This document shows, in pieces, positions 28,552 to 53,086 of a stretch of DNA of 64,000 nt; position 1 is the first letter of the stretch; each line of letters opens with the position of its first letter. The DNA is from a virus. The DNA lies in IMG/VR virus record IMGVR_UViG_3300030380_003294, one strand, 5' to 3'. The notes beneath the pieces are model-generated. The model did no database searches. It had not been told where the DNA came from and saw only the letters and a program-made list of their open reading frames with translations. The position numbers and the translations under genes are program-made.

Positions 28552-29175
28552 TTATTGACCTGGGGTTGGATACTCCTCCACCCATGCAGTAACAATGTAC
28601 TTATCTTTATTTAGGGGCGGATTACCTCGGTGTGTCCATGCCCAGTCACAAGGGAAGATAACAAACTTACCTGCCTTTGGTTTTACTCTGAAATGTTGAT
28701 ATAAAAATTCTGTTTCACCACCTTCAAATCCATCATTTAGATAGATCATGGTTGCTAACTTACGATATGGTGCAGAGGGTGTTGATTCATAGTGCCATGC
28801 ATGATAACCCTGCCCAGGTTCTGTCTTTTGGAGTTTCGCCATGGTATGTTGAAACCTACGTCCAACCAGAATATCATACTTCAATACATACTCTCTTAAT
28901 GCTTGTTCAGTAAGATAATTCCAACGTTGGAAGATTGATCTTGACAAATTATCATGAAAGTATTCTACTGGTAACTCATGCATAAAGATTTGAGAATCAG
29001 CAGCACCTTTCTCTGCGTGTCTCTTGATTGTCAAACCATTATCTGATATGAACTTATAGTAATCCAGTATTGGTTGACAATCTAGATTAGTTTCAAACTC
29101 ACTAATGAAATTATCGTTGTGTGTTACATTAGTGATTACTGGTTCGCCTCCATACTGAGAAGCGAAAGGACTCAT
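28552..29175 (-). CDS. 2OG-Fe(II) oxygenase (prolyl 4-hydroxylase-like)
   Basis: GYHAWHYE...IYLNDGFEGGETEF...FP..W..THRGNPP...KYIVTAW. Confidence 0.9.
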   Translation of the reverse strand: MSPFASQYGGEPVITNVTHNDNFISEFETNLDCQPILDYYKFISDNGLTIKRHAEKGAADSQIFMHELPVEYFHDNLSRSIFQRWNYLTEQALREYVLKYDILVGRRFQHTMAKLQKTEPGQGYHAWHYESTPSAPYRKLATMIYLNDGFEGGETEFLYQHFRVKPKAGKFVIFPCDWAWTHRGNPPLNKDKYIVTAWVEEYPTPGQ

Positions 29176-29363
29176 TACCATTTATTAATCGGGCAGTGGA
29201 ATACAGGAAAGCGTGCTTTAACTGCAAGCACACAATTACATTTAGTACAGATCCCAATAGGGGATTTATACTGACAGTCATTGCATATTCTAATCCGATT
29301 TTGATATAATGTCAAGTCAGGTACATCACCATCCTCGACAATCAGTTTAGCTTGACCAGACAC
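29175..29363 (-). CDS. Small Cys-rich metal-binding protein
   Basis: RIRICNDC...CTKCNC...K......CP..KW, six Cys. Confidence 0.75.
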   Translation of the reverse strand: MSGQAKLIVEDGDVPDLTLYQNRIRICNDCQYKSPIGICTKCNCVLAVKARFPVFHCPINKW

Positions 29364-36893: not shown

Positions 36894-37598
36894 TTATTCA
36901 ACTTCGGGTTCGATCTGGACTTCAACTGCGTTCTCTTCGTTATACTCTCTTTGTTCTTCTTCGATTGTTTTATATGCCCATTCGTCAGTATGTCCGACTG
37001 ACCACCACTTAGGTAGTGTCTCAACAGCATAGTTTTGTGTACACACTTTAAAGTCAGGTGTCTTTAGATGATCATTATCAACTAGACTATTATCAAAGAA
37101 CTGACACCTATTATTAGGTTGTGCTGCAAATTGTCCGTTATCTAGTGCAATAACATTGAATGTCTTATGCTCAGGGTCATGCTCTGAGAAGTTTGTATCT
37201 AATACAGAGAAGTCAGGATGTGCAGTATCAATAGTGAATTCATATTCACCTGGGTGCATCTTTCTATCTTTACCAAAGAACTGACACCTACCTAACAGAG
37301 GTTTCTCAACTACGGTAATATTGTAGTCAAAGCAATCCCATAGTTCTAATACATCTAATGGTAACTGATTATCCCAATCAATATCTGGATTCCATACAAA
37401 GGCACTGAGTGGTAACTTATCGAAGAGTGCACCGTAGTCAGTCAGTAAGGTCTCAAAGTATAATGCTTTTGCTTGAATACTCCTTACAGAGATCCAAATT
37501 CCTGGGGTTAGTTCCCCATGTCCTTTTTCAAGATCGTATAAGTATTCTTTCTTTACCCATACTTTTCTGGGAGGTAAAGGATGAACTAAGTATGCCAT
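36894..37598 (-). CDS. Conserved phage hypothetical protein
   Basis: 234 aa; GALFDKLPLSAF, LWDCFDY and NGQFAAQPNNR motifs. Confidence 0.8.
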   Translation of the reverse strand: MAYLVHPLPPRKVWVKKEYLYDLEKGHGELTPGIWISVRSIQAKALYFETLLTDYGALFDKLPLSAFVWNPDIDWDNQLPLDVLELWDCFDYNITVVEKPLLGRCQFFGKDRKMHPGEYEFTIDTAHPDFSVLDTNFSEHDPEHKTFNVIALDNGQFAAQPNNRCQFFDNSLVDNDHLKTPDFKVCTQNYAVETLPKWWSVGHTDEWAYKTIEEEQREYNEENAVEVQIEPEVE

Positions 37599-41585: not shown

Positions 41586-42035
41586 CTAAAAGGCGATTTT
41601 GGTTTTGACAAACTTATAGGTTTCTTTACTACCCCAGATCATCTTACCATCAACATACCCTTGGTCACAACTATGTAACTTGTCACCGAAGAGTGACATC
41701 TGTGATTTGATTTCAACTCCATTAGCAATACAATTTCCCACTACAGAACCGTGCCATGCGTTACCATCAAATGTAAACAGCATACCACACTCTTCAGATT
41801 TTGTCCACTCTAAATCGTAATTCTCTATTAATACTTCAGTGTCTGATATTATTACCTTCTTGTGATATCTTTTTCTATATGGTTTACTTGGACCGTCAAC
41901 TCTATAGTAATTTTGAGACTGAAAACCCCCTTCTATCTCTTGCCAATGCATGTAAATTGATGCATAGGCATGGGGATTCGCTTGTGCTTGTGCTATGTTA
42001 TTCCAGAGTCCTAAAAGGTAAGACTCAATCGTCAT
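41586..42035 (-). CDS. cpeT: CpcT/CpeT-type phycobilin lyase
   Basis: GLWNNIAQAQANP, PYRKR and DQGY..G..IWGS motifs. Confidence 0.85.
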   Translation of the reverse strand: MTIESYLLGLWNNIAQAQANPHAYASIYMHWQEIEGGFQSQNYYRVDGPSKPYRKRYHKKVIISDTEVLIENYDLEWTKSEECGMLFTFDGNAWHGSVVGNCIANGVEIKSQMSLFGDKLHSCDQGYVDGKMIWGSKETYKFVKTKIAF

Positions 42036-42282: not shown

Positions 42283-43683
42283 TCAACTAACAGCGTCCTT
42301 CATGAGGAGCATTTCCGAAGAAAATGTATCAGATGATCCTTTATGAGCAATCGTAACAATCATGTAACGACCACTATACCTCTTATCTCTCTTAATCTTA
42401 TCACCAGATTTTACTGTAGATGGTAAGGTAACATCGATACCAGAACCTGCATAGAGGTCCAGATTTCCAGGAATTGAGATTTGTAGTTTTGTGTTTTTTA
42501 GTGATTCCATTCTCATCCATTGATATGCTTGCAACTCTACGAGTGCTTCATAATTTTTGGAGGAACTTCTGTTCAAACCAGGTATGTAGTTATACCACTT
42601 CTTATCGAAGATTTGGTTTGGAAGTATACTATAACGTACCCTCTTAGGGTTGTCAATAAGATTTTTGGTTTCATTATCAAGTCGTGACACAGGGTTGACT
42701 GCCTTCTTTCCACCCAAGTGTGACATTGATTTCCAGATATCATTAATATTATAGTTGAAACTTGCTCCTGCTAAGTCTGGACTCTTACCACCCCATCTAG
42801 ATTGATTGATTGTTACAGGATCAAACCCCACACTGTATCCTGACCACGCACCATGCCTCAATCCCATCAAAAAGTTTTTCTCCTCTGGGAATGATACAGT
42901 ATCAATTTTATACTGGTCTGTTGCTCCATTACCTACCCTCTTTAAAGAAAGAGAATAACTATACAATCTTGTTTTACCTGTTTTTTCATCAGTTTTGGTA
43001 TCACCATCCTGATCATTGATATCATCAATCATACCATCAATAGATTTGAAGTGATAACCTAATGCATTTTCAAAGAATGTGTACCCGTTTTGATAACTAC
43101 CACCCGTTTTCTTTTTTCTGACTGTTCTCTGGGTAATCCAATAGATTGTATCTAAAGGTCTCCAGTTTGGTGCTATAAACTTATGTTTGGTTAAACTATC
43201 CTCTGCAAATACTTTTTTCTCACTTCCAAGAAACATAGTGTTTCCCACTAATGTTTTGACAATATCAGTTGCTTCAATACCAGTCTTTTTAAAGATTACT
43301 TCTGAGTTTCCAAAAACATTTGCTGCTTCATTCTTAATATATTCATCAGAACATGCATGAATAATAAATGCATCAGTAGTTTGAGTAACTCTACTTCTAC
43401 TACTAATGTTGTATGATCTAAAAGAATACTTTCTCGTAACAACACTTCCTTTAACTTCAAACCTAATCAGTTCAGATCCAGTAAAAACATTTGAAAGACC
43501 TGCACTATCTTCAAAGATAAACATTGCCTCGATTGTTGCAGACTCAATGCTCTCGTAGATCTCCCAAGTTTTGAGAAAGGTGATTAAATTATATCCACCA
43601 TCTTTAGTTGTAAGTTTTTCTCCATCTCTCTCAAGAGAAATTGTGACAGTACAATCACCCGCATTTACTCTTTTAATACTCAT
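42283..43683 (-). CDS. Baseplate hub protein (gp27-like)
   Basis: IYESIE, FFENALGYHFKSIDGM, IPGNLDLYAG and YSGRYMI motifs; located between the tape-measure genes and gp5. Confidence 0.7.
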   Translation of the reverse strand: MSIKRVNAGDCTVTISLERDGEKLTTKDGGYNLITFLKTWEIYESIESATIEAMFIFEDSAGLSNVFTGSELIRFEVKGSVVTRKYSFRSYNISSRSRVTQTTDAFIIHACSDEYIKNEAANVFGNSEVIFKKTGIEATDIVKTLVGNTMFLGSEKKVFAEDSLTKHKFIAPNWRPLDTIYWITQRTVRKKKTGGSYQNGYTFFENALGYHFKSIDGMIDDINDQDGDTKTDEKTGKTRLYSYSLSLKRVGNGATDQYKIDTVSFPEEKNFLMGLRHGAWSGYSVGFDPVTINQSRWGGKSPDLAGASFNYNINDIWKSMSHLGGKKAVNPVSRLDNETKNLIDNPKRVRYSILPNQIFDKKWYNYIPGLNRSSSKNYEALVELQAYQWMRMESLKNTKLQISIPGNLDLYAGSGIDVTLPSTVKSGDKIKRDKRYSGRYMIVTIAHKGSSDTFSSEMLLMKDAVS

Positions 43684-46472
43684 CGTAAAAGACCTCTCAT
43701 AAAGTTGTTGTTGGAATTAAGAGCATATGCTGTGCTTTTTAACACACCATTCATATTTACAGTTCCTACACCAGGTAAACTATTTACCGATGTCGAACCT
43801 CCTCCTCCACCACCTGACGCACCTGCTAGACCTTCTTGTGCTTGATTGACAGCATTAGCAGTCGCAGCATTAGATGATCTCACTGTTGTTGCTGCAGCAG
43901 TTACAGCATTAGTTACGCCTTCTTTGAATTGTTTTCTTGATTCATTTCTATCTGAAGTTGCCTGTGTTAATGCTCCTGATCCGCTTGAAGCAGATCCAAA
44001 CTGACTGGAAACTCCTGCTCCCATTCTCTCTTCTATACTCTTTGCACTAGAGGGTTTGCCAAGACCCAAAGTATTAATCAGTTTTACTGTATTGTTTGCA
44101 GCACCACCACCCTCAGAGTCAGAACCACTAGTGGTATCATCTGCTGAAGAAGTATCAATAGTACCATCATACCCAAGTGTATTATTGGCAGGGTGTGTTA
44201 GTGCAACAACTCCTGTAGTTCCTGCTCCATACACAGAAGCAACTCCCTTATAACGACCATTCTGCCAGTGTCCACTCCAAAGTTTCATTCCACCATTCTT
44301 AGCAATAGCAGAGTCATTGCCACTTGAACTGCGAGCAGCGTTCCAATTAGAATGCCTAGTGGTGAAGATCAAGGCACCAGAGGGAATCTTTTTATCCTTA
44401 ACACTCTTCGCCCATTCATCCTTATTCATCACATTAACATTTGCATTTCCATAAGGAGATTTAATTTTAAACGGTTTACCAAGACCTTCAATGGATCCCC
44501 ATTTAAAACGATTGATTGCCTGTGACATCAGACCCCTAGGGTTATTACGATCTTTACTGGTATAGACACTTGGATGTCCGATGTTTGCTCCAACTTTTTC
44601 TGCTGTCAATATAACACCAGTAGTACATTGTCCTCTAGCTGCATTAGCAAGAGGAGTATTATCACCCAATTTACCAAGTTCACCACCTGCTGCCATCTCC
44701 TTCATTTTCATGAACTGTTTTTTTCTCCTCTCCATTCGAGTATCTAGAGGTCGTCCAGTCTTCGGATCGTACTCACCACCACCGTCAAAGAGTCCTATGC
44801 CTTTGATTGCACTAAGGAACTTATTGGCAAGTCCTCCAAAGAACCCCGTGTTTCCCTGTTCGGCATCTTCAGTTCTATTTCTTGCACCACTATCAGTACG
44901 TCCAGTGCTATCTCCACTAATATATGCAGGACCACTGCTAACACCTTTCGATTGCATCAATTCGATCAACTTCTTAGGGTAAGTAGGATCTGTAGCATAA
45001 CCTTCAGACTTCAGCATTGCTGCTGCTTCATTAGGACTACCCGCATTGTTGACACCTTTATATCCTTTGTAATCTTTATACCACTGAGTTACAAGATGAC
45101 CAACAGCATCCTGAGGTGTGTCGAAGTTTTTGAAGTTAGCGTTGATATAAACGTCTTTACCATTGATAACTTCTCTAGTTCTCTGATTTGCTGAAGATTC
45201 GCCACCAGTTGCTTTGATTCCAAAGAAATTGTTTTTAGCAGACAAAGCTGATCCCCATCCACTTTCTAGTGCCCACTGAGCACTGACGAGTTGCGGATAC
45301 TTTGCACCCTTCTCCTTACCCCACTCAGTGAATTTGTCCCATCCTTCTTGTCTCGTTACCTCTCCACCTTCAGCATAACCTAGTCTCTTTGCCTCTGCCT
45401 GTCTCATGGCAGTCAAACCAGGATTCTTACGGGTTGCAGGAGTATCATACGGTGTGACAAATGCTTGTCCACCTGCTGATTTCATAGAAACATACTCTGT
45501 CCCATGACCAATGAATGCTGTAGATTTACCACCATCAAGTGATACAGGGTATCCAGACTGAGGACCTTGAATCCAACCACCCTTAGAATATCCTTTAACT
45601 ATACCACCCTTTGCTTTCCCTTCTTTCTTGTCATCATCATTAGATGGGTTAGCACCATCTCCAGAGTCCCCACTTGATTTTGTTAACTGATTAATAGCAA
45701 CCGTGCTTACGATAGTTGCTCCTACTCCTACTGCTAGTTTCTTCCAAGAAGCACCTCTGCTTCCAGGCATGCGTGGGCCAGCACCTTTAGTCAGAATTCT
45801 TACTAGTGTTCTTGCTGCAGTTGTAATATCTTTTGCAAGTTTAACTGGATTAGTTAACCAACGCAAACCTAGGAATAGAGAACCTATACCTATGATTGCC
45901 TTACCAAATCCAATAGTTTTTTCCCACCAAGAAGTATCATCAGACAGTAACATGTACAGTCCGTCAATAGTCTGGGTAATTCCAAACTTTGCCCAGTCAA
46001 ATATAAACTTACCGATAGCACCAATGACTTCAATAATCTTTACAACTTTAGATTGATTTTCGTCCTTTGATAACCAACTAAGAGCAGGTAAAATAATCAA
46101 TCCCTTGAATAGATTACCCAGTAATCCTAAGAGTCCTTCAAGAAATCCACCACCTTTTTTCAGTATCCCTTTAGCAACTTTGCCCATGATACTACCTTTC
46201 TTGGTCTTCCCATACTTGGGATCCATCTTAGGTTTATTCTTGTTTAAATCTTCAAGTCTTTCTAGTTCTACCTTTTTTAGATCAGCAACAATACCTGCCA
46301 TGCCATTGATAGTGGCACCTAAATTATTAATTGCTTCAGTGCTTTTGTTTAAACTTACCGTTGTCGCATACTCGCCAGGATCTTTCTTCTCTAAATCAGA
46401 AGGCGGTTCCTTAACATTTACAAACTTGTAAAAGTTAATCTTCGATGATTTTTGTACTGCTGCCTTTGCCAT
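43680..46472 (-). CDS. Tape-measure-like virion protein with a GH73 (FlgJ-like) muralytic domain
   Basis: Hydrophobic Gly/Ala-rich N-half; AQWALESGWG...NNFFGIKA...GYATDPTY glucosaminidase motifs. Confidence 0.75.
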   Translation of the reverse strand: MAKAAVQKSSKINFYKFVNVKEPPSDLEKKDPGEYATTVSLNKSTEAINNLGATINGMAGIVADLKKVELERLEDLNKNKPKMDPKYGKTKKGSIMGKVAKGILKKGGGFLEGLLGLLGNLFKGLIILPALSWLSKDENQSKVVKIIEVIGAIGKFIFDWAKFGITQTIDGLYMLLSDDTSWWEKTIGFGKAIIGIGSLFLGLRWLTNPVKLAKDITTAARTLVRILTKGAGPRMPGSRGASWKKLAVGVGATIVSTVAINQLTKSSGDSGDGANPSNDDDKKEGKAKGGIVKGYSKGGWIQGPQSGYPVSLDGGKSTAFIGHGTEYVSMKSAGGQAFVTPYDTPATRKNPGLTAMRQAEAKRLGYAEGGEVTRQEGWDKFTEWGKEKGAKYPQLVSAQWALESGWGSALSAKNNFFGIKATGGESSANQRTREVINGKDVYINANFKNFDTPQDAVGHLVTQWYKDYKGYKGVNNAGSPNEAAAMLKSEGYATDPTYPKKLIELMQSKGVSSGPAYISGDSTGRTDSGARNRTEDAEQGNTGFFGGLANKFLSAIKGIGLFDGGGEYDPKTGRPLDTRMERRKKQFMKMKEMAAGGELGKLGDNTPLANAARGQCTTGVILTAEKVGANIGHPSVYTSKDRNNPRGLMSQAINRFKWGSIEGLGKPFKIKSPYGNANVNVMNKDEWAKSVKDKKIPSGALIFTTRHSNWNAARSSSGNDSAIAKNGGMKLWSGHWQNGRYKGVASVYGAGTTGVVALTHPANNTLGYDGTIDTSSADDTTSGSDSEGGGAANNTVKLINTLGLGKPSSAKSIEERMGAGVSSQFGSASSGSGALTQATSDRNESRKQFKEGVTNAVTAAATTVRSSNAATANAVNQAQEGLAGASGGGGGGSTSVNSLPGVGTVNMNGVLKSTAYALNSNNNFMRGLLR

Positions 46473-48796
46473 TATAAGCGTCTAGAAGTTACAGAAGAGA
46501 TAGATGAGGTTCCACCACCGCCTTTATTTATTGGCACTGCAGTAGGAATAGGAACTAAGGTTTGCATGATGATTGGAACTGGCAGCATTTCATCTGCTGA
46601 TTCTTTTATTGCTATGTCTTGTGACAAACCACCACTGATAAACACTGCTTGAATTTGATTCTCAACCTTCTGAATTATTGGTTGTATCTTATGCTCAGGT
46701 GTAGCAATGTGAGGTTTTATGGTTTTAACAATTCCATTCATGGTCTTGCTAAAGTTGGGCATTCCTGTCATAGGAACAATACCACCTTCTGCTCTCATAG
46801 GAACAAGACCACCTTCTGCCTTCTCTTCCAAACGAGAACCTTGACCTTCATAACTCTCATTCTTCATGCCCTCAATCAAACCTTTATTACCTGTGACAGC
46901 ACCAACAATAGTTCCAAAACTAGGAAGCATATCAGCGTATACCTTATCAATGACTGGTTTGATCTTATTAAGACCTGGAATTTTATTAACAAACTTCTCT
47001 TCAGCAGTTTGCATTTCTGGAATGAGATCACGAAGGAACATGTAACCATCAATGAAATATCCTGCTGCAACAGCACCTGCACCTAGAGGTGCTCCTGCAC
47101 CAAGAGTTCCTGCTGTACCAAGATAACCTGCTAATTCTAATCCACCTGATGCACCTTCTAACATAGCACCAATAGTATCACCTTTTGAAAGTCTGTCATA
47201 AGCAAATAAGAAGTTTACAATAGAACCTACAAGTGGTAAGAATGACATTGCTCTCTTACCTAATATCTTACCTGCTTTAGGAATAGCTCCAATACCACCA
47301 TCAATACCTATTGACTTCAATACTTTTGGTGCCTTATCCATTCCTGGAATTTTCATAATTATATTCTTGGCACCATCTACCATAGGTGTCACGATTTTTG
47401 TTATATTCTCGATAAGAGGTTTAAACTTCGCCATCAACCTATCAAGGACTTCTTTCTTTAACTTCGCACTTAAATTAGAGAGTCCGTCTGCTGCCCAACT
47501 ATAAGCACCTTTGATTTTACTGGCACCAAAATCAAGAGCATTCTTACTTGCCTTTGATACTGAATCATATGCTTTAACTGCTTTAGATGGAAGACTTTTG
47601 AGAGCATCTAGAATTGAAGGACCTGCTTTCTTTGACGCAAGAGACCAACCCGTCTCAATCAGATTCGCAAGTTGCTTTCCTCTTTTGTTTATTTCTTCCA
47701 GTCCTGCTGTACCAAGTTTTTTTCCTGTATCTACAAGATTGTCAAATCCTCTTTGGAAGATGTTTTTGCCTTTTGATGCTGATTTTACGTCATCTGCTTT
47801 ATTAGCAAGATCACCCGCAACCTCAGTTACCGCTGTTAATTTTTTTATCTGACGATTATATGCTTTAGTTGCTTGAACTAGATTACCAGGTTCGGGTTTA
47901 GTATTTTTTAAAGCATTCTGAAAAATCCTTAAACCATCCTCACCAGTTTCTGCTAATATCTTCTTTGCCTTTTTACCTGCTGCCTCACCAAATTCATCGG
48001 TGACATTCTTAAGAATGTTTTTTGCCTTTTTACCTTTCTGTAATGCTTTCCTTGCATCATTAACACTATCAATAGTATCTGCTGTTTCTTCTGCCTGTCT
48101 TCCTAAATTAAGTAGGCCACCTACAGCATCGATTGCCATTAGGATTCCAGTTATACCAGTGATGGCACCAATAACTGTTCCTAATCCTTTAAGTCTATCT
48201 CCAATAGTTTTTTCTTTACCAAACAAATTATCAACGGTGGTCATTATCGCACCAGTGATCTTTGAAGCAAACTCAAATAATTTATTGAATACAAATCCAG
48301 TCTTTTCAATAAAGACTTTTACTTTCTCTGTGTTTTCTGGATCTTTTAGGTAAACTAGTAGATTTAAGAAGAGTGCTGTACCTGCAACCTTCGCTAGAAG
48401 ACCTGCAATAGGTGCCATGAATCCTCCTAGGAATCCAAAGAACCCATTCTTAGATTTTAAGAGACCACCTAATAATCCTTTCTTAGGTTTCTTCTTGATC
48501 TCTTTATCAAACTCTTTATCCGTCTTACCCTGTTCAATTCTCTTGCCTTCTTGTGCTTCCTCTGCAGCATTATCCCGTTCTCTTTGCAACCTTCTACGTT
48601 GCTGTTTCTCTATCTCAGTTTCAGTTCTTTTGAACGCATTATTAATCTTAGCAAGATCATTTAAACCATCTGCCATACTGCTAACCGTGTTACCAACACG
48701 ATTAATAGCAAATAATTGTGAACGTGCAGCAATAGCAGCAGGGTTTTTTATACCTGCTGGTGGTGAAACCAGTTTGTATGCTACAACTTTTGCCAC
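46472..48796 (-). CDS. Tape-measure-like protein (GTG start)
   Basis: 774 aa, Ala/Gly/Lys-rich helical with hydrophobic stretches; follows gp26/gp51. Confidence 0.65.
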   Translation of the reverse strand: MAKVVAYKLVSPPAGIKNPAAIAARSQLFAINRVGNTVSSMADGLNDLAKINNAFKRTETEIEKQQRRRLQRERDNAAEEAQEGKRIEQGKTDKEFDKEIKKKPKKGLLGGLLKSKNGFFGFLGGFMAPIAGLLAKVAGTALFLNLLVYLKDPENTEKVKVFIEKTGFVFNKLFEFASKITGAIMTTVDNLFGKEKTIGDRLKGLGTVIGAITGITGILMAIDAVGGLLNLGRQAEETADTIDSVNDARKALQKGKKAKNILKNVTDEFGEAAGKKAKKILAETGEDGLRIFQNALKNTKPEPGNLVQATKAYNRQIKKLTAVTEVAGDLANKADDVKSASKGKNIFQRGFDNLVDTGKKLGTAGLEEINKRGKQLANLIETGWSLASKKAGPSILDALKSLPSKAVKAYDSVSKASKNALDFGASKIKGAYSWAADGLSNLSAKLKKEVLDRLMAKFKPLIENITKIVTPMVDGAKNIIMKIPGMDKAPKVLKSIGIDGGIGAIPKAGKILGKRAMSFLPLVGSIVNFLFAYDRLSKGDTIGAMLEGASGGLELAGYLGTAGTLGAGAPLGAGAVAAGYFIDGYMFLRDLIPEMQTAEEKFVNKIPGLNKIKPVIDKVYADMLPSFGTIVGAVTGNKGLIEGMKNESYEGQGSRLEEKAEGGLVPMRAEGGIVPMTGMPNFSKTMNGIVKTIKPHIATPEHKIQPIIQKVENQIQAVFISGGLSQDIAIKESADEMLPVPIIMQTLVPIPTAVPINKGGGGTSSISSVTSRRL

Positions 48797-48798
48797 TG

Positions 48799-48981
48799 CT
48801 ATTGTTTCTCCTTCATTCTACGTTCTTCCTCTTTGAGGTGTTGTACTAACATGTCAACATAGATTTCTTTCTCCCATGGCATGAGGTTATCTATGTGTTC
48901 GATGTTCCACTTGTGGTGGTGCATCAACGCAAAGTTACCCTCATAATATGCCTGTAGAGATGTGTGAAGTAGGGCTACCCG
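48799..48981 (-). CDS. gp51: Baseplate hub assembly protein gp51-like frame (no ATG at the expected start)
   Basis: Manual translation RVALLHTSLQAYYEGNFALMHHHKWNIEHIDNLMPWEKEIYVDMLVQHLKEEERRMKEKQ; first ATG only at 48924. Confidence 0.8.
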   Translation of the reverse strand, partial: RVALLHTSLQAYYEGNFALMHHHKWNIEHIDNLMPWEKEIYVDMLVQHLKEEERRMKEKQ

Positions 48982-49685
48982 AAAAAACTTGCTAGTCCTT
49001 CGAGTGTTACATCACTTTCTACTTTAGTGTTGGGATTAGTTACCTTAACTGTGTGAGCAAGTTTTGGCATAGTGTCAAAAAACTCTTGCACTTTTGCAAA
49101 CTGTGCACTATTCATATCATCAAAGAATGCAAGGACCTCATCTTGAGGTACATCTTTACAGTCATAGACCTGATTAGGATCTTGAATAGTTTTTACACAT
49201 GCTGCTGCCATCTTAAAGACTTCTTCTACACCGATGTTTTGATCAGTGAAGTTCAGTGTCACAAACATATCCAAACTTGGATATCCCATTTCGATAGCAC
49301 ATTCATCAGTTAACTGAATGCTTGACTTGTGCCCCTTTGTTTTCTTGACCTTGATTTGATCAAGAGGGATCGAGACCTTTGCAGTGGTCTCTCCATCATC
49401 AGGACAGGTGACAACTACATCAACTTCTTCACCGACAGATTTAGTTCTAATCTGTAAGAAAAGATATTCAATATCAAAGGTTGCCAAATTGTCTACAGAA
49501 TCTAGGTCTGTGCAATTTGTAATGATGTCTTTGATTGCATCGATGATGTTTGATTGATCACCAGTTTCAGTTGCGACTAATAGTAACTTTTCTTCTTTAA
49601 CAAGAAATGGTCTATAGTTCACAGTTCTACCATCAGAAGGTAGTTTCAGTTTGTACTTAGGGGTATTTAACTTAGGTAATGCCAT
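48975..49685 (-). CDS. gp26: Baseplate hub assembly protein gp26
   Basis: MALPKL..P.Y, YRPFLVKEEKLLL, FDIEYLFLQIR.KSVGE and LEGLASFF motifs. Confidence 0.9.
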   Translation of the reverse strand: MALPKLNTPKYKLKLPSDGRTVNYRPFLVKEEKLLLVATETGDQSNIIDAIKDIITNCTDLDSVDNLATFDIEYLFLQIRTKSVGEEVDVVVTCPDDGETTAKVSIPLDQIKVKKTKGHKSSIQLTDECAIEMGYPSLDMFVTLNFTDQNIGVEEVFKMAAACVKTIQDPNQVYDCKDVPQDEVLAFFDDMNSAQFAKVQEFFDTMPKLAHTVKVTNPNTKVESDVTLEGLASFFG

Positions 49686-49711: not shown

Positions 49712-50551
49712 TTAGCTAAGGAACGAACCTGCATATTCTTTTAGTCCACTTAATGCATTATATGTCATTCCTCCTGCCTTAACGAAGAACTTTTGTGATT
49801 TATTAAAGAAATTACCAATATGCTGAGTAAAGTTCCTTTCAGATCTATCATCTGTAGTTCCTCCTGATGTGTCAGGAACAGTAATTTGCTTTCTTAATCC
49901 AGGATCTGAAAATGCTTCTGCAGCATGGAATCTATATCTCTCGTAGTAAAATCCCATACTCAAAGTCATGATTCCATTCTGTTCATTATTCAACTGAATA
50001 CTACCAATGTTGTACGGGAATACGTTAAACATCTCCCAACAACCCGTCAATACGTTGATATTACTTTGTGACTCCCACTTATAAACTCTCACTACTGGAG
50101 ACACATACTGTTGATAGAAGTCTACCATCTGGTTAGAGTCTCTACTTATTCTGTTCACCCATGTTTCAAAAATTGCTCTTGTCTGTTGAGATGAGGGAAT
50201 GATAAACTCAACCTGCATCTGACTAAATGATTGGTTGGTTGCGTATCTTACTGACGCACCTGGAGGTTGGAACTGACCAGTAGTAATCTGTCTACTAGGC
50301 AAACTCACACTTTTTGCAAAGTAATCTAGTAAATCAGCAACACCTCTACTTTCCAAGGTAGTTTTATCTGTAGTGGACTGACCACCAACATTTTGACCAA
50401 GTAAGATAGGAGGAGAAGCAAAACTAATCGTCCACTTATTAAGAGTCGCAGGACGTTTTGTCTCGTCCTTGATCATAGTAGATAAGAACGAACCAACACC
50501 ACCACCAGTTTTGGCGATCTGTCTTGCTTGATCTGAATTTGGAATTGCCAT
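49712..50551 (-). CDS. Tail tube initiator-like protein (gp54/gp19 fold)
   Basis: SVSLPSR..TT, FETWVN, NVFPYNIGSIQL...F.Y tube-fold motifs. Confidence 0.7.
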   Translation of the reverse strand: MAIPNSDQARQIAKTGGGVGSFLSTMIKDETKRPATLNKWTISFASPPILLGQNVGGQSTTDKTTLESRGVADLLDYFAKSVSLPSRQITTGQFQPPGASVRYATNQSFSQMQVEFIIPSSQQTRAIFETWVNRISRDSNQMVDFYQQYVSPVVRVYKWESQSNINVLTGCWEMFNVFPYNIGSIQLNNEQNGIMTLSMGFYYERYRFHAAEAFSDPGLRKQITVPDTSGGTTDDRSERNFTQHIGNFFNKSQKFFVKAGGMTYNALSGLKEYAGSFLS

Positions 50552-50970
50552 TAGATTTTAAGTTCTTTCTCTGTGATTAACATAAACTCCCACGAGTTAT
50601 CTTTACAGAACTCGGTTGCTGCTTTCCACTTTGCCTGATTTACAGCGTAAGTGACGACCTCATTTATGTATCGTTTAGTATGTCGTTTTTGAGTTTTAGG
50701 TTCAAGAGTTTGTTTGAATGGTTTGACTTCAACCAAATACTTTTTATTCTTGACCTTTACATAAAAGTCAGGGAAATATCTATGTTTTCTACCATCAACA
50801 GGAGAAACATAAGGTATAATAATCTCTTCACTACCCCATTCCTGTACAGAAGGAGTTACATCACACCACTTCATAAACTTATACTCCCAAGATGACCTAT
50901 AAATAACATTATTAGGATCACCTTTGTACTTTCTAGGGAAACTTGGTCGGTATTTACCCTGATACCTCAT
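50551..50970 (-). CDS. gp4: Head completion nuclease gp4
   Basis: KYKGDPNNVIYRSSWE..FMKWCD, HRYFPDFY, EVKP and NQAKWKAA motifs. Confidence 0.93.
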   Translation of the reverse strand: MRYQGKYRPSFPRKYKGDPNNVIYRSSWEYKFMKWCDVTPSVQEWGSEEIIIPYVSPVDGRKHRYFPDFYVKVKNKKYLVEVKPFKQTLEPKTQKRHTKRYINEVVTYAVNQAKWKAATEFCKDNSWEFMLITEKELKI

Positions 50971-51008: not shown

Positions 51009-52073
51009 TTGGCAGAGAAACAAGAGAAAACTGTATTACGATATCCTCTAGAGCCTGTAGTGCCAGAATCTGATAAGGAATCATTTCCTACAGAGGCGGT
51101 TGACTATGTAATGTTTCAAAGAAAGAGAATCAATTATAACGATGGTGGTAAAGGTTACAAAGGGTTAAATACGTTAAAAACTAACGCACAAGGTCTTCCT
51201 TCAAGTGATGTAAACTTTAAACCTAATAAGACTAGAGTATATTTAGCGATGCCTAAGCAGATCTCAACTGCTTATAGTGCAAGTTACTCTAAAGTTGATA
51301 TGGGTGTCGCAGGTGTTATAGCATCTACGATGATTGGTGATGCAGCAGGTGGATCAATGACTGTAGATTCTGCAGCAGAGAATGTTCAGAACTTTGCTTC
51401 AGCAGGATTACCTCAAGCAACAGGTAACGTATTAGCAGGGATAACAGGTAGTCTCAACCAATTAATTGGTGGAGGAGGTAATGTAACAGCAGCAGATCTT
51501 TTGGCAGTTGGTCAGGGTAGAGTATTCAATCCCTTTGCCGAACAGATCTTCAAAGAAATGCAGTTTAGAACTCACACTTTCCAGTTCAAGTTGTTCTCTC
51601 GTTCAATGCAAGAAGCAAAAGAGAACTTCAATATTATTAGATACCTAAAAACAGGTGCTGCACCTATTGTGCAATCAGTAGATGACGAGGCAGTGTTGGG
51701 AATCTTTGGTTCAGAGAAAGAAGGAGGAGTTGGCGCAGACGAAACTGAGGTTGGTAATTTTAAAGAAGCAGCAGATGCAAACGCAAGCGTGCTTCAAGGA
51801 GCAAGATTTTTTGAAGTCCCTGACAAGTATGATATTAAGTTTGTTAGATATAATCCCGCAGATGAAACACTAGGTGAAGATGGTGGTTTACATTTTAGAA
51901 TTCATACCTCAGTATGTACTAACATTTCTGTAAACTATACACCTGATGGACAGTATTCGTCATTCCAAACTACAGGTAATGGTGCTGTAGCAGTACCTGC
52001 CATTGCACTCAGTATGAGTTTTACTGAGACCAGTCTTGTTACTCAAAAACATATCTTCGGTGGAGGTTTCTAA
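51009..52073 (+). CDS. gp48: Baseplate tail-tube cap gp48
   Basis: LRYP, VYLAMP, NPFAEQIF...FRTHTFQFKL, VNYTPDG and LSMSFTE motifs. Confidence 0.85.
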   Translation: MAEKQEKTVLRYPLEPVVPESDKESFPTEAVDYVMFQRKRINYNDGGKGYKGLNTLKTNAQGLPSSDVNFKPNKTRVYLAMPKQISTAYSASYSKVDMGVAGVIASTMIGDAAGGSMTVDSAAENVQNFASAGLPQATGNVLAGITGSLNQLIGGGGNVTAADLLAVGQGRVFNPFAEQIFKEMQFRTHTFQFKLFSRSMQEAKENFNIIRYLKTGAAPIVQSVDDEAVLGIFGSEKEGGVGADETEVGNFKEAADANASVLQGARFFEVPDKYDIKFVRYNPADETLGEDGGLHFRIHTSVCTNISVNYTPDGQYSSFQTTGNGAVAVPAIALSMSFTETSLVTQKHIFGGGF

Positions 52074-53086
52074 TGTCTTACTTTTCTTATTTCCCTAATG
52101 TATATGTCGGAGAAGGCATTACCAATGATCAAAACTATCGATATCGTTTAGTTACAAATCTATTCAGACGAGTCAAGGTAAGAGAAGATCTTAATAAGTT
52201 TGTAACTCAATTTGAAGCATACTCTATTAAACCAGGTGAAACTCCATCATCTTTGGCACTAAGATTCTTGGGAGATGAGTTCTTAGATTGGGTTATACTC
52301 TTATGTAATAACGTTACAGACTTCTATGAGCAATGGCCAAAGACTGACTATGACTTACAAAAGTATGTGAATACTGTATATTCAGATCCAGATGCTGTTA
52401 ATCATTATGAAACTCAAGAAGCAATAGATGGAACAACAGTCGTAACAAGGAAAGGTATTGAAGTTTTAGATAGTTATAGAACTGTCATGCCAGATGGAAC
52501 GGTTCTTTCTGCAGAGCAATCAAGATTTCCTGTATCAAACTATGAACACGAAGTCTTTAAGAATGAAGTAAAAAGACAAATTGTAATGCCAACTAGAGGT
52601 TTAGCAGACTTAATGGTTGATGAGTTTGAAGATCTCATTGCATATGATCCTCATCCAGAACTAGATGATGTAAACAATAAGAAAACCCCACTGAGTATCT
52701 CAGCAAGGTTCATTGATATTGCGGGTTATGTTACTGCTAGTGTGTCTAGACAGTCAGCAGCAACTAGCACAACTACATTTGACTATGGTCCCTCTGGTTC
52801 TAACACTACATCAGGAAGCGTAGGAGTTGCAACTAGCACATCTACTGATGCTACAACTACAACAACTAGCACAGGTGCAAGTAGCAGCACCTCTAGTAGT
52901 ACATCTAGCAGCACATACAACAGCGGAACAAGTTCTTCATCTTCGAGCAGCAGTTCTTCCTCTTCAAGTTCTAGTTCTTCTAGCAGCAGTAGTAGTGGTA
53001 GCAGTTCTTCTTCTGGATCCTCAGGTTCTTCTGGATCCTCAGGTTCTTCTGGATCCTCAGGTGGAGGTTACGGAGGAGGATATTAA
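52073..53086 (+). CDS. gp53: Baseplate wedge gp53 with a long Ser/Thr/Gly tail
   Basis: MSYFSYFPN, YSIKPGETP, LDWVILLCNN..D.YEQWP and HYET motifs. Confidence 0.88.
   Translation: MSYFSYFPNVYVGEGITNDQNYRYRLVTNLFRRVKVREDLNKFVTQFEAYSIKPGETPSSLALRFLGDEFLDWVILLCNNVTDFYEQWPKTDYDLQKYVNTVYSDPDAVNHYETQEAIDGTTVVTRKGIEVLDSYRTVMPDGTVLSAEQSRFPVSNYEHEVFKNEVKRQIVMPTRGLADLMVDEFEDLIAYDPHPELDDVNNKKTPLSISARFIDIAGYVTASVSRQSAATSTTTFDYGPSGSNTTSGSVGVATSTSTDATTTTTSTGASSSTSSSTSSSTYNSGTSSSSSSSSSSSSSSSSSSSSSSGSSSSSGSSGSSGSSGSSGSSGGGYGGGY
53009..53062 (+). repeat. Three perfect copies of an 18-bp tandem repeat (SSGSSG)
   Basis: tcttctggatcctcaggt x3 within the gp53 tail. Confidence 0.9.

What the first reader, a model, noticed from the sequence alone, without database searches (positions are those of the whole stretch)
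48799..48990. Probable programmed -1 frameshift fusing gp26 to gp51 (lambda G/GT-like tail chaperone logic)
Seen: gp26 ends AGT TTT TTC GGG TAG, containing the slippery heptamer T TTT TTC (48987-48981). The -1 frame continues CGG GTA GCC CTA CTT CAC... straight into the gp51-like sequence (LLHTSLQAYYEGNFALMHHHKW...MPWEKEIY). That frame has no ATG or GTG before the conserved-looking YY..NFALM block; the first TTG/ATG falls at its end. The pair lies immediately upstream of the tape-measure-like genes. Known: long-tailed phages make tail-assembly chaperones G/GT (lambda) or E/E+E' (P2) by -1 frameshifting at this genomic position. Inference: gp26 and a gp26-gp51 fusion of about 295 aa are the equivalent chaperone pair in T4-like cyanophages, where the two are normally annotated as separate genes.
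Basis: partly seen in the sequence, partly recalled or inferred. Interest (0 to 1): 0.75.

Follow-up and report, generated by a model that had tools for sequence, protein, structure and literature searches.

The report
Frameshift joins cyanophage gp26 and gp51
One tail-assembly chaperone gene of this T4-like cyanophage very probably makes a short and a long protein because some ribosomes slip back one base on a strictly conserved TTTTTTC; phage T4 makes the same pair from two genes (26 and 51), and the principle appears to have been published in 2022.

Summary
On the minus strand, gp26 (48975..49685, 236 aa) ends AGT TTT TTC GGG TAG. The in-phase heptamer T_TTT_TTC lies at 48987-48981, and the -1 frame runs on to 48802 with no start codon before codon 20/21.

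The signal is conserved. In 51 distinct junctions from 81 loci, with gp26 identity down to 35%:
- the T run always starts at codon position 3;
- the codon that supplies the first T encodes five different residues yet ends in T in 51 of 51;
- the 18 codons after the slip site vary as coding sequence does in the -1 frame;
- 48 of 51 have no start codon upstream of the slip site.

T4 gp51 is a gp26 paralogue (PF12322, E 3.9e-52) with a C-terminal tail homologous to this -1 ORF. T4 gp26 stops where the slip site lies here and encodes its FF as TTC TTT. T4 has two PF12322 genes; eight other records examined have one each. The predicted gp26 N-terminal domain best matches the HK97 tail assembly chaperone (Z 7.5).

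My verdict is a -1 ribosomal frameshift giving a 236-aa and a 295-aa form (confidence 0.8). No protein evidence exists.

Vladimirov, Gautam and Davidson (Virology 2022) appear to have published the principle; I saw only citing passages. This scan had already noted the same thing on many other genomes. It is a new member of a known kind, still unannotated in the records I read.

The parts
48975..49685 (-). gp26-family gene, the short chaperone form (TAC-N), 236 aa; stop TAG at 48977-48975
   Evidence: Pfam PF12322 T4_baseplate E 1.1e-74 over residues 9-235. phrog_150 'baseplate hub' E 2.6e-85, profile 5-232 of 282. AlphaFold2 model pLDDT 86.9, pTM 0.80. Residues 1-89 best match HK97 tail assembly chaperone 2ob9_B, Z 7.5.
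48981..48987 (-). slippery heptamer T_TTT_TTC in phase with gp26 (codons S233-F234-F235)
   Evidence: Sequence read directly. In phase in 51 of 51 distinct junctions: TTTTTTC 47, TTTTTTA 3, TTTTTTT 1. H_HH.U_UU.Y is listed among the most efficient -1 motifs in E. coli (PMC4066793, passages).
48799..48981 (-). -1 frame extension read after the slip: 60 codons (CGG at 48981-48979 through CAA at 48804-48802) plus stop TAG 48801-48799. This is the C-terminal tail of the long form (TAC-NC, 295 aa). Relatives annotate its last 42-45 codons as 'gp51'.
   Evidence: phrog_634 'baseplate hub assembly catalyst' E 1.1e-29, profile 54-116 of 121, and phrog_150 C-terminal part 228-281 of 282, E 0.0031. It aligns to the C-terminal tail of T4 gp51 directly after the conserved FF. 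In 51 distinct sequences, entropy summed over codons 2-19 is 13.9/10.9/21.8 bits for positions 1/2/3. There are no stops in this frame, against stops in 51 of 51 in each other frame.
48982..49011 (-). upstream part of the -1 open frame (10 codons overlapping the gp26 3' end), with no ATG, GTG or TTG
   Evidence: Stop-to-stop ORF list. 48 of 51 distinct relatives also lack any start codon here. Three, from one clade (L079, L081, L083), have an ATG 14 codons upstream.
48922..48927 (-). TTG (48927-48925) and ATG (48924-48922): first possible starts in the -1 frame, at the position annotated as the gp51 start in Syn33 and S-8S29
   Evidence: The residue at this position is Met in 41, Ile in 9 and Thr in 1 of 51, so it behaves as an internal residue.
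48996..49001 (-). GAAGGA (codons E228-G229), a Shine-Dalgarno-like hexamer ending 8 nt before the heptamer. Possible upstream stimulator; idea only.
   Evidence: Sequence. E in 50 of 51 and G in 51 of 51 at these codons. T4 gp26 also has AGA GGC here, so protein constraint can explain it.
46472..48796 (-). 774-aa downstream gene, tape-measure-like by position
   Evidence: It starts 2 nt after the -1 ORF stop. The genes at the matching place are annotated tape measure in HTVC008M and Cr30. PHROG labels it 'endolysin' (phrog_790). No BLASTP similarity to T4 gp29.
49712..50551 (-). 279-aa upstream gene of the tail-tube family (gp54-like tube initiator)
   Evidence: phrog_45 'tail tube' E 2.8e-47. 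Weak PF06841 Phage_T4_gp19 hit, E 0.016, below the cut-off.

Best explanation
The gp26-family gene is the tail/hub assembly chaperone gene of this T4-like cyanophage, and it is decoded in two ways. Most ribosomes read the 0 frame and stop at TAG 48977-48975, giving the 236-aa short form. A minority, with tRNA-Phe on TTT (P site) and TTC (A site), slip back one base on T_TTT_TTC (48987-48981). Both tRNAs re-pair with TTT, and translation continues in the -1 frame for 60 more codons to TAG 48801-48799, giving a 295-aa long form. The long form has the architecture of T4 gp51 and the short form that of T4 gp26. So one gene plus a frameshift does here what two paralogous genes do in T4. By analogy with lambda gpG/gpGT (recalled, not tested here), the shared N-terminal part would coat the tape-measure protein encoded just downstream. 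The tail of the minor long form would link that complex to tube or hub proteins, and neither form would stay in the virion. Shown here: the anatomy, its conservation, the homology to gp26 and gp51, and a chaperone-like fold. Inferred: the slip itself, its mechanism, its efficiency and the binding partners.
For: (1) Anatomy is as described. (2) The downstream ORF is in the -1 frame in 84 of 84 sequences, that is 83 loci plus the window, with gp26 identity from 100% down to 35%. (3) In 51 distinct junctions the T run is in phase in 51 of 51. The third base of the preceding codon is invariant across six codons and five residues, while neighbouring third positions carry 0.99-1.92 bits. (4) The 18 codons between the slip site and the annotated start vary with codon periodicity in the -1 frame. 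H7 is kept in 50, L10 in 51, Y13 in 49, N17 in 48 and F18 in 51 of 51, and no stops occur. 48 of 51 have no start codon from which this segment could be reached. (5) T4 gp51 hits PF12322 at E 3.9e-52 over residues 1-201 and covers phrog_150 positions 13-280 of 282. T4 gp26 covers only 14-235. In alignment A1, T4 gp51 continues past the FF exactly where the window's -1 ORF begins, and T4 gp26 ends three residues after it. (6) T4 has 2 PF12322 genes; 8 other records have 1 each. (7) Natural control: T4 gp26 encodes its FF as GAG TTC TTT. (8) An in-phase T_TTT_TTY followed by an open -1 frame of 57-74 codons occurs in 9 of 11 further named phages from Straboviridae, Ackermannviridae, Pootjesviridae, Menderavirus and others. 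(9) A contiguous natural protein, P0121, matches phrog_150 5-277 of 282 and phrog_634 9-119 of 121, each in one stretch. (10) The gp26 model's best structural matches among 48,161 chains are the HK97 tail assembly chaperone (Z 7.5, rmsd 4.0, 83 aligned), then 3fgx_B (Z 7.1) and 3klu_A YqbN (Z 7.0). The next row has Z 4.8. (11) U_UU.U_UU.Y is among the efficient -1 motifs in E. coli (PMC4066793, passages).
Against: There is no protein, ribosome-profiling or reporter evidence for this or any cyanophage. No conserved downstream RNA structure was found. The window's 101 nt fold at z -0.54. Across 45 distinct relatives the mean z is -0.71, with 11 of 45 below -2 and different hairpins in different clades. 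Foldseek against the PDB gave no match at E <= 0.001, and Z 7.5 lies in the range the tool calls middling. A Met is present at codon 21 in 41 of 51, and several records annotate a separate 45-aa gp51, so independent initiation of a small peptide is not excluded. Some distant lineages (D490, Cr30, Ps15, K448) have an ATG overlapping the gp26 stop. Two of 11 named distant phages (Salmonella SP1, Vibrio K448) lack the heptamer and keep only T_TTC. Frameshift efficiency on this motif in cyanobacteria is unknown.
Confidence: 0.8

Rival explanations
1. Transcriptional slippage: RNA polymerase adds one U in the run of six, and a subset of mRNAs then encodes the same 295-aa protein in a single frame.
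For: The signal is a homopolymer run. One relative has eight T's and HTVC008M and Cr30 have seven. No RNA stimulator of ribosomal slipping was found. [quoted passage not shown]
Against: The run is only 6 nt in 50 of 51 distinct junctions. The last codon is TTC in 47 and TTT in 1, which keeps the run short. The run is locked to codon position 3 in 51 of 51, which tandem tRNA slippage needs and polymerase slippage does not. Known slippage-prone runs are usually longer (recalled). Contigs from four metatranscriptome libraries of a relative (most laid contigs 95-99% alike, two 90-95%) bridge the run without an indel. That is weak evidence, because contigs drop rare variants.
Confidence: 0.08
2. 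Two separate proteins, as annotated: gp26 ends at its stop, and a 42-aa gp51 starts on its own at TTG 48927 or ATG 48924. No fusion is made.
For: Syn33, S-8S29 and HTVC008M records annotate a 45-aa gp51. Met at codon 21 is present in 41 of 51. GAGGG lies 10-13 nt upstream of the TTG/ATG in the window.
Against: This leaves 18 conserved, codon-periodic, stop-free codons upstream of that start unexplained. The Met is Ile or Thr in 10 of 51, and in L021 and L022 the first possible start is codon 34. It does not explain the invariant in-phase heptamer. T4 gp51 carries the homologous tail fused to a gp26-like domain.
Confidence: 0.07
3. Termination-reinitiation or non-canonical initiation near the gp26 stop makes a free tail peptide of about 60 aa.
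For: In D490, Cr30, Ps15 and K448 an ATG overlaps the gp26 stop (TAATG or TGATG) in the -1 frame.
Against: The window and 48 of 51 distinct close relatives have no ATG/GTG/TTG near the stop. The lineages that have the overlapping ATG, except K448, still keep the in-phase heptamer.
Confidence: 0.03
4. Artefact: a sequencing or assembly error in a homopolymer, or a broken gene.
For: Homopolymer runs are error-prone. Three metagenome proteins (P0121, P0122, P0123) show in-frame fusions with odd junctions that look like assembly errors.
Against: The same arrangement occurs in 51 distinct sequences, in isolate genomes from many laboratories and in 11 distant named phages. Only 4 proteins longer than 123 aa carrying the tail were found in the protein collection.
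Confidence: 0.01

Closest known systems
T4 gp26 (208 aa) and gp51 (249 aa), hub assembly chaperones; named TAC-N and TAC-NC of T4-like phages by Vladimirov, Gautam and Davidson, Virology 2022, 566:9-15 (paper not held; seen only as a reference and in citing passages)
   Same: The family is the same: PF12322, phrog_150 and phrog_634. The short form ends just after the conserved FF, and the long form adds a homologous tail of about 50-60 residues. The Leiman 2010 review lists both as hub assembly chaperones and says gp51 is absent from the virion (PMC3004832, passages). A citing paper states that poly-T slippery sequences occur in TAC-N genes of T4-like phages.
   Different: In T4 the two forms are separate, divergently transcribed genes with about 20% identity, and the T run is broken. 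Here one gene plus a -1 slip is inferred. I could not check whether the 2022 paper treats cyanophages specifically.
Lambda gpG/gpGT and P2 gpE/gpE+E': the conserved -1 frameshift in tail assembly chaperone genes of long-tailed phages (Xu, Hendrix and Duda, Mol Cell 2004; content recalled, only the reference seen)
   Same: Two overlapping ORFs lie just upstream of the tape-measure-position gene. An in-phase heptamer sits one codon before the 0-frame stop. The -1 ORF has no start of its own. The N-terminal domain has a chaperone-like fold (best match HK97 chaperone 2ob9).
   Different: There is no sequence similarity to lambda G/T. The short form is about 236 aa, roughly twice the size of lambda gpG as I recall it. 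The slippery sequence is U_UUU_UUC, whereas lambda uses G_GGA_AAG (recalled). In T4 biology the function is described as hub assembly, not tube-length control.
Tail assembly chaperone frameshift of Vandenendeviridae and Andersonviridae (Pseudomonas phage Adele paper, PMC12846349, passages read)
   Same: [quoted passage not shown]
   Different: The protein family and phage groups differ. The motif reported there is GTTTTT.

Membership tests
T4 gp26/gp51 family (Pfam PF12322 T4_baseplate; phrog_150; phrog_634) | gp26-type domain over the family's curated cut-off | tested here: met
   PF12322 E 1.1e-74, 251 bits against a cut-off of 24.5, residues 9-235. phrog_150 E 2.6e-85.
T4 gp26/gp51 family (Pfam PF12322; phrog_150; phrog_634) | C-terminal tail homologous to that of T4 gp51 | tested here: met
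   The -1 ORF hits phrog_634 at E 1.1e-29, profile 54-116 of 121. T4 gp51 residues 147-246 hit the same profile at positions 2-103. The two align in A1.
T4 gp26/gp51 family | One short and one long form per genome | tested here: met
   T4 has 2 PF12322 genes. Syn33, D490, LPCS28, P-RSM1, S-8S29, HTVC008M, Cr30 and SP1 (partial record) have 1 gene each, followed by a -1 tail ORF. tblastn with gp26 finds no second copy in the 64-kb window. The window's whole genome is not held.
-1 frameshifted tail assembly chaperone pair (lambda G/GT type) | [quoted passage not shown] | tested here: met
   T_TTT_TTC at 48987-48981. In phase in 51 of 51 distinct junctions.
-1 frameshifted tail assembly chaperone pair (lambda G/GT type) | Downstream ORF in the -1 frame, conserved as coding, with no start of its own | tested here: met
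   -1 offset in 84 of 84. No upstream start in 48 of 51. Codon periodicity and no stops.
-1 frameshifted tail assembly chaperone pair (lambda G/GT type) | Position between a tail tube gene and the tape measure gene | tested here: inconclusive
   The upstream gene is of the tube family (phrog_45, E 2.8e-47). The downstream 774-aa gene is tape-measure-like only by position and by annotation in HTVC008M and Cr30. BLASTP against T4 gp29 gives E 1.9.
-1 frameshifted tail assembly chaperone pair (lambda G/GT type) | Tail assembly chaperone fold of the N-terminal part | tested here: met
   VIA-align over 48,161 chains: the top hit is 2ob9_B, the HK97 tail assembly chaperone (Z 7.5, rmsd 4.0, 83 of 104 residues, model residues 1-89). 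Next are 3fgx_B (Z 7.1) and 3klu_A YqbN (Z 7.0), and the following row has Z 4.8. Caveats: the Z is middling by the tool's own note, and Foldseek gave E 1.6 and probability 0.54 for 2ob9_B. That YqbN is a chaperone homologue is recalled, not tested.
-1 frameshifted tail assembly chaperone pair (lambda G/GT type) | Both products made in a fixed ratio, required for tail assembly and absent from virions | not testable with these tools
   Needs protein work. For T4, gp51 is stated to be required but absent from the particle (PMC3004832, passages).
-1 frameshifted tail assembly chaperone pair (lambda G/GT type) | Stimulatory RNA element (downstream structure or upstream SD-like sequence) | tested here: inconclusive
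   No conserved downstream structure. An SD-like GAAGGA ends 8 nt upstream, but its codons (E, G) are protein-conserved and the Gly codon is also present in T4. As far as I recall, this feature is not obligatory for the family.

The most novel reading that the evidence does not exclude
A bare U_UUU_UUC placed one codon before the 0-frame stop, with no downstream RNA structure and perhaps helped by the SD-like GARGG 8-9 nt upstream, sets the short-to-long chaperone ratio. The one-gene frameshift form would be the ancestral state of the whole T4-like supergroup (Kyanoviridae, several Straboviridae, Ackermannviridae, Pootjesviridae, Menderavirus). T4's two genes would be a later duplication that let the run decay. 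Lineages such as Kuttervirus SP1 and Vibrio K448 would have reduced the signal to the tetramer U_UUC or switched to reinitiation. The 60-residue tail would be the adaptor that hands the tape-measure complex to hub or tube proteins.
Probability: 0.3. Interest if true: 0.45.

Novelty: new member of a known kind. Interest (0 to 1): 0.3.

Why it matters
The finding corrects a systematic annotation error. In the records I read, the tail is either a stand-alone 45-aa 'gp51 baseplate hub assembly catalyst' (Syn33, S-8S29, HTVC008M) or an unannotated gap (P-RSM1, LPCS28, SP1). It is most likely the C-terminus of a 295-aa chaperone isoform.

It also shows that T4-like phages follow the general rule of long-tailed phages: a short and a long tail chaperone are made from one locus. 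It explains why T4 gp51 and gp26 are paralogues. It gives T4-like cyanophages, which are very abundant in the sea, a clean and strictly conserved recoding site that could be tested with a simple reporter.

It is not a new principle. A 2022 paper appears to have identified the pair, and this scan has noted the same site on many other genomes.

Tried and rejected
1. Downstream RNA stimulator. Folding of 101 nt gave z -0.54. Folding the 60 nt after the heptamer in 45 distinct relatives gave mean z -0.71. The hairpins with z < -2 (11 of 45) differ between clades and derive from local codons. Nothing conserved was found.

2. RNA evidence. 16 metatranscriptome runs hold part of the stretch, all kept as contigs. 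I laid four of them, from two studies. Contigs of a relative (most laid contigs 95-99% alike, two 90-95%) bridge the junction in 4 of 4 runs with no indel at the run. Contigs cannot show rare variants, transcription or strand, so this neither proves expression nor excludes polymerase slippage.

3. Natural in-frame fusions. A search for longer proteins carrying the tail gave only 4 hits among 5 candidates. P0121, P0122 and P0123 have odd junctions and, in P0122, further read-throughs. I take them to be assembly errors and used P0121 only as a contiguous test sequence.

4. An alignment of P0121 with separate gp26 and tail rows (A2) was misaligned by MAFFT. I dropped it, so no model of the long form was made.

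5. A sequence search of solved structures with the gp26 profile gave nothing below E 0.14. Foldseek against the PDB gave nothing at E <= 0.001.

6. Tree of 22 gp26-type domains. T4 gp26 and the gp51 N-domain pair up (87/74), but both are long branches and the tool flags the join as unsafe. It is no firm evidence for a T4-lineage duplication.

7. BLASTP of the 774-aa downstream protein against T4 gp29 found no similarity.

8. Complex prediction was not used. There are at least four candidate partners for the tail and only one job, so a result would not have moved the odds.

9. Literature. Searches found no paper on a gp26/gp51 frameshift in cyanophages. One search found only papers that cite the 2022 Virology paper, which is not held.

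10. The window's own assembly is not held, so a second PF12322 copy could be excluded only in the 64-kb window and in complete relatives.
Full report
**What is there.**
The finding lies in the baseplate and tail module of a T4-like cyanophage. Its nearest named relative is P-RSM1, at 84% nucleotide identity over the locus and 86% gp26 identity. Going down the minus strand the genes are:
- a head-closure gene (50551..50970);
- a tail-tube-family gene (49712..50551; phrog_45, E 2.8e-47);
- the gp26-family gene (48975..49685, 236 aa; PF12322, E 1.1e-74);
- a 70-codon open -1 frame (48799..49011);
- a 774-aa gene and a 930-aa gene.

gp26 ends GCA AGT TTT TTC GGG TAG. The heptamer T_TTT_TTC therefore lies at 48987-48981, in X_XXY_YYZ phase, one codon before the stop. 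The -1 frame has no ATG, GTG or TTG until TTG 48927 and ATG 48924, which are codons 20 and 21 after the heptamer. A slip would give 235 + 60 = 295 residues.

**Is it conserved?**
A scan of IMG/VR with gp26 returned 80 loci with 100% to 35% protein identity. Together with three named cyanophages and the window, 84 of 84 sequences have the tail ORF in the -1 frame, and a T run lies right before the gp26 stop.

I reduced the window plus the 80 IMG/VR loci to 51 distinct junctions:
- The run starts at codon position 3 in 51 of 51.
- The heptamer is TTTTTTC in 47, TTTTTTA in 3 and TTTTTTT in 1.
- The codon that supplies the first T is AGT (29), AAT (8), GCT (6), TCT (5), GAT (2) or ACT (1). That is five different residues with an invariant third base.
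- Third positions of the ten preceding codons carry 0.99 to 1.92 bits.

So the constraint acts on the nucleotides, not on the protein.

T4 provides a natural control. Its gp26 keeps the two Phe residues but writes them GAG TTC TTT.

**Is the -1 segment coding, and can it be reached?**
In the 51 distinct sequences, codons 2-19 lie before the start that some records annotate. Their summed entropies are 13.9, 10.9 and 21.8 bits for codon positions 1, 2 and 3. Residues H7, L10, Y13, N17 and F18 are nearly invariant. There is no stop in this frame, while all 51 have stops in each of the other two frames.

48 of 51 have no start codon in the -1 frame upstream of the heptamer. Three, from one clade, have an ATG 14 codons upstream. 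The first start inside the ORF is:
- at codon 20 or 21 in 42 of 51;
- at codon 6 in 6;
- at codon 13 in 1;
- at codon 34 in 2.

The 'start' residue at codon 21 is Met in 41, Ile in 9 and Thr in 1. A conserved coding segment with no way in except from gp26 is the classical signature of a programmed shift.

**What the two products are.**
The -1 ORF hits phrog_634 ('baseplate hub assembly catalyst', the gp51 label) at E 1.1e-29, but only at profile positions 54-116. It also hits the C-terminal end of the gp26 profile phrog_150, positions 228-281 of 282.

T4 explains this. Genes 26 and 51 are divergent neighbours there. T4 gp51 (249 aa) is itself a full gp26-family protein (PF12322, E 3.9e-52, residues 1-201; phrog_150 positions 13-280), with phrog_634 covering residues 147-246. 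T4 gp26 (208 aa) covers phrog_150 only to position 235. The two are about 20% identical.

In alignment A1, T4 gp26 ends three residues after the conserved FF. T4 gp51 continues with a tail that aligns with the window's -1 ORF. The contiguous metagenome protein P0121 matches both profiles end to end.

T4 has two PF12322 genes. Syn33, P-RSM1, S-8S29, HTVC008M, Cr30, Vibrio D490, Cronobacter LPCS28 and Salmonella SP1 (a partial record) have one each. The window holds no second copy. So the frameshift product equals gp51 in architecture and the 0-frame product equals gp26.

**Beyond cyanophages.**
I inspected 11 further named phages. All 11 have an open -1 frame of 57-74 codons after gp26.
- Nine have an in-phase T_TTT_TTY: Vibrio D490, Cronobacter LPCS28, Aeromonas AsSzw2, Pelagibacter HTVC008M, Caulobacter Cr30, Stenotrophomonas Ps15, Agrobacterium OLIVR5, Ochrobactrum ORM_20 and Acinetobacter SH-Ab 15599.
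- Two, Salmonella SP1 and Vibrio K448, keep only ATT TTC or CTT TTC. This is the tetramer U_UU.C, which ranks second among tetramers in E. coli (PMC4066793, passages).
- D490, Cr30, Ps15 and K448 also have an ATG overlapping the stop, so reinitiation is possible there.

I judged similarity of these -1 ORFs to the tail by eye, except for D490 (phrog_634, E 3.8e-20).

**Mechanism.**
I favour tandem -1 tRNA slippage. The motif class H_HH.U_UU.Y is among the most efficient in E. coli, and U_UU.U_UU.C is used by some IS elements. The fixed codon phase is what ribosomal slippage requires and polymerase slippage does not. The strong preference for TTC over TTT as the last codon (47 to 1) keeps the run at six.

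I found no conserved downstream structure. An SD-like GAAGGA ends 8 nt upstream, but its codons are protein-conserved and the Gly codon is also present in T4, so it remains an idea. Contigs from RNA libraries bridge the run without an indel, which is weak evidence.

**Chaperone identity.**
An AlphaFold2 model of gp26 (pLDDT 86.9, pTM 0.80) gave no significant Foldseek hit. In an exhaustive structural alignment against 48,161 chains, its three best matches are the HK97 tail assembly chaperone 2ob9_B (Z 7.5, rmsd 4.0, 83 residues), 3fgx_B (Z 7.1) and 3klu_A YqbN (Z 7.0). All three cover model residues 1 to about 90, and the next row has Z 4.8. This fits the G/GT reading, with the caveat that the Z is middling.

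The Leiman 2010 review lists gp26 and gp51 as hub assembly chaperones and calls gp51 essential, of unknown function and absent from the particle (PMC3004832, passages).

The tape-measure identity of the downstream gene is positional. It is annotated as tape measure in HTVC008M and Cr30 but has no BLASTP similarity to T4 gp29.

**Novelty.**
Earlier notes of this scan pointed me to Vladimirov, Gautam and Davidson, Virology 2022. The paper is not held. Two citing papers describe it:
- The PRFect preprint says some T4-like phages carry a short gene and a long fused gene instead of frameshifting (PMC10274946).
- The phage Adele paper says poly-T slippery sequences occur in TAC-N genes of T4-like phages (PMC12846349).

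My own searches found no paper on this site in cyanophages, but the principle is in print. The scan has reported the same site on at least 43 other genomes. I therefore class this window as a well-supported new member of a known kind. Its practical value is for annotation, because none of the records I read annotates the shift.

**Verdict.**
My confidence is 0.8 for a -1 ribosomal frameshift making a 236-aa and a 295-aa chaperone. Interest is 0.3.

Noticed in passing
window 43680..48796 (-): Two large genes in tandem follow the chaperone locus, of 774 aa and 930 aa. Their N-terminal ~200 residues are weakly alike (27% identity, E 0.002). The second carries a glucosaminidase domain (PF01832, E 3.5e-21, residues 391-508). 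PHROGs label both 'endolysin'. They look like a duplicated or split tape-measure gene, one copy with a wall-degrading domain.
   Followed up: partly
L084:2803-2850 (T4 gene 26 3' end): T4 gp26 keeps the FF motif but encodes it GAG TTC TTT, so the slippery run is absent where two separate genes exist. T4 also annotates an internal product, 26'.
   Followed up: yes
L086 (Salmonella phage SP1, Kuttervirus) and L098 (Vibrio phage K448): These two lineages have the -1 tail ORF but no heptamer, only ATT TTC or CTT TTC (tetramer T_TTC). K448 also has an ATG overlapping the stop. This may be a reduced slip signal or a switch to reinitiation.
   Followed up: partly
L085, L094, L095 (Vibrio D490, Caulobacter Cr30, Stenotrophomonas Ps15): The in-phase T_TTT_TTY heptamer and an ATG overlapping the gp26 stop (TAATG or TGATG) occur together, so two routes to the tail may coexist.
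   Followed up: no
L079, L081, L083 (IMG/VR loci, gp26 about 35% identical): One clade has an ATG 14 codons upstream of the heptamer in the -1 frame, inside gp26. It is the only group of the 51 with a possible independent start.
   Followed up: no
P0121, P0122, P0123 (metagenome proteins): These are rare in-frame gp26-tail fusions whose junctions differ from the predicted slip product. P0122 also reads through into the next gene. They are probably homopolymer errors in long-read assemblies.
   Followed up: partly
window 52073..53086 (+): The gp53-like baseplate wedge protein (phrog_232, E 4.4e-86) ends in a long Ser/Thr/Gly low-complexity tail of roughly 100 residues.
   Followed up: no
window 41586..42035, 36894..37598, 28552..29181 (-): Host-like auxiliary genes sit among the tail genes: a CpeT-like protein (phrog_488), a protein in a PHROG labelled 'ferredoxin' (phrog_3704) and a 2OG-Fe(II) oxygenase (phrog_61).
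   Followed up: no
L002 (P-RSM1), L087 (LPCS28), L086 (SP1): In these records the tail ORF is not annotated at all, and a gap of 160-500 nt follows gp26.
   Followed up: yes
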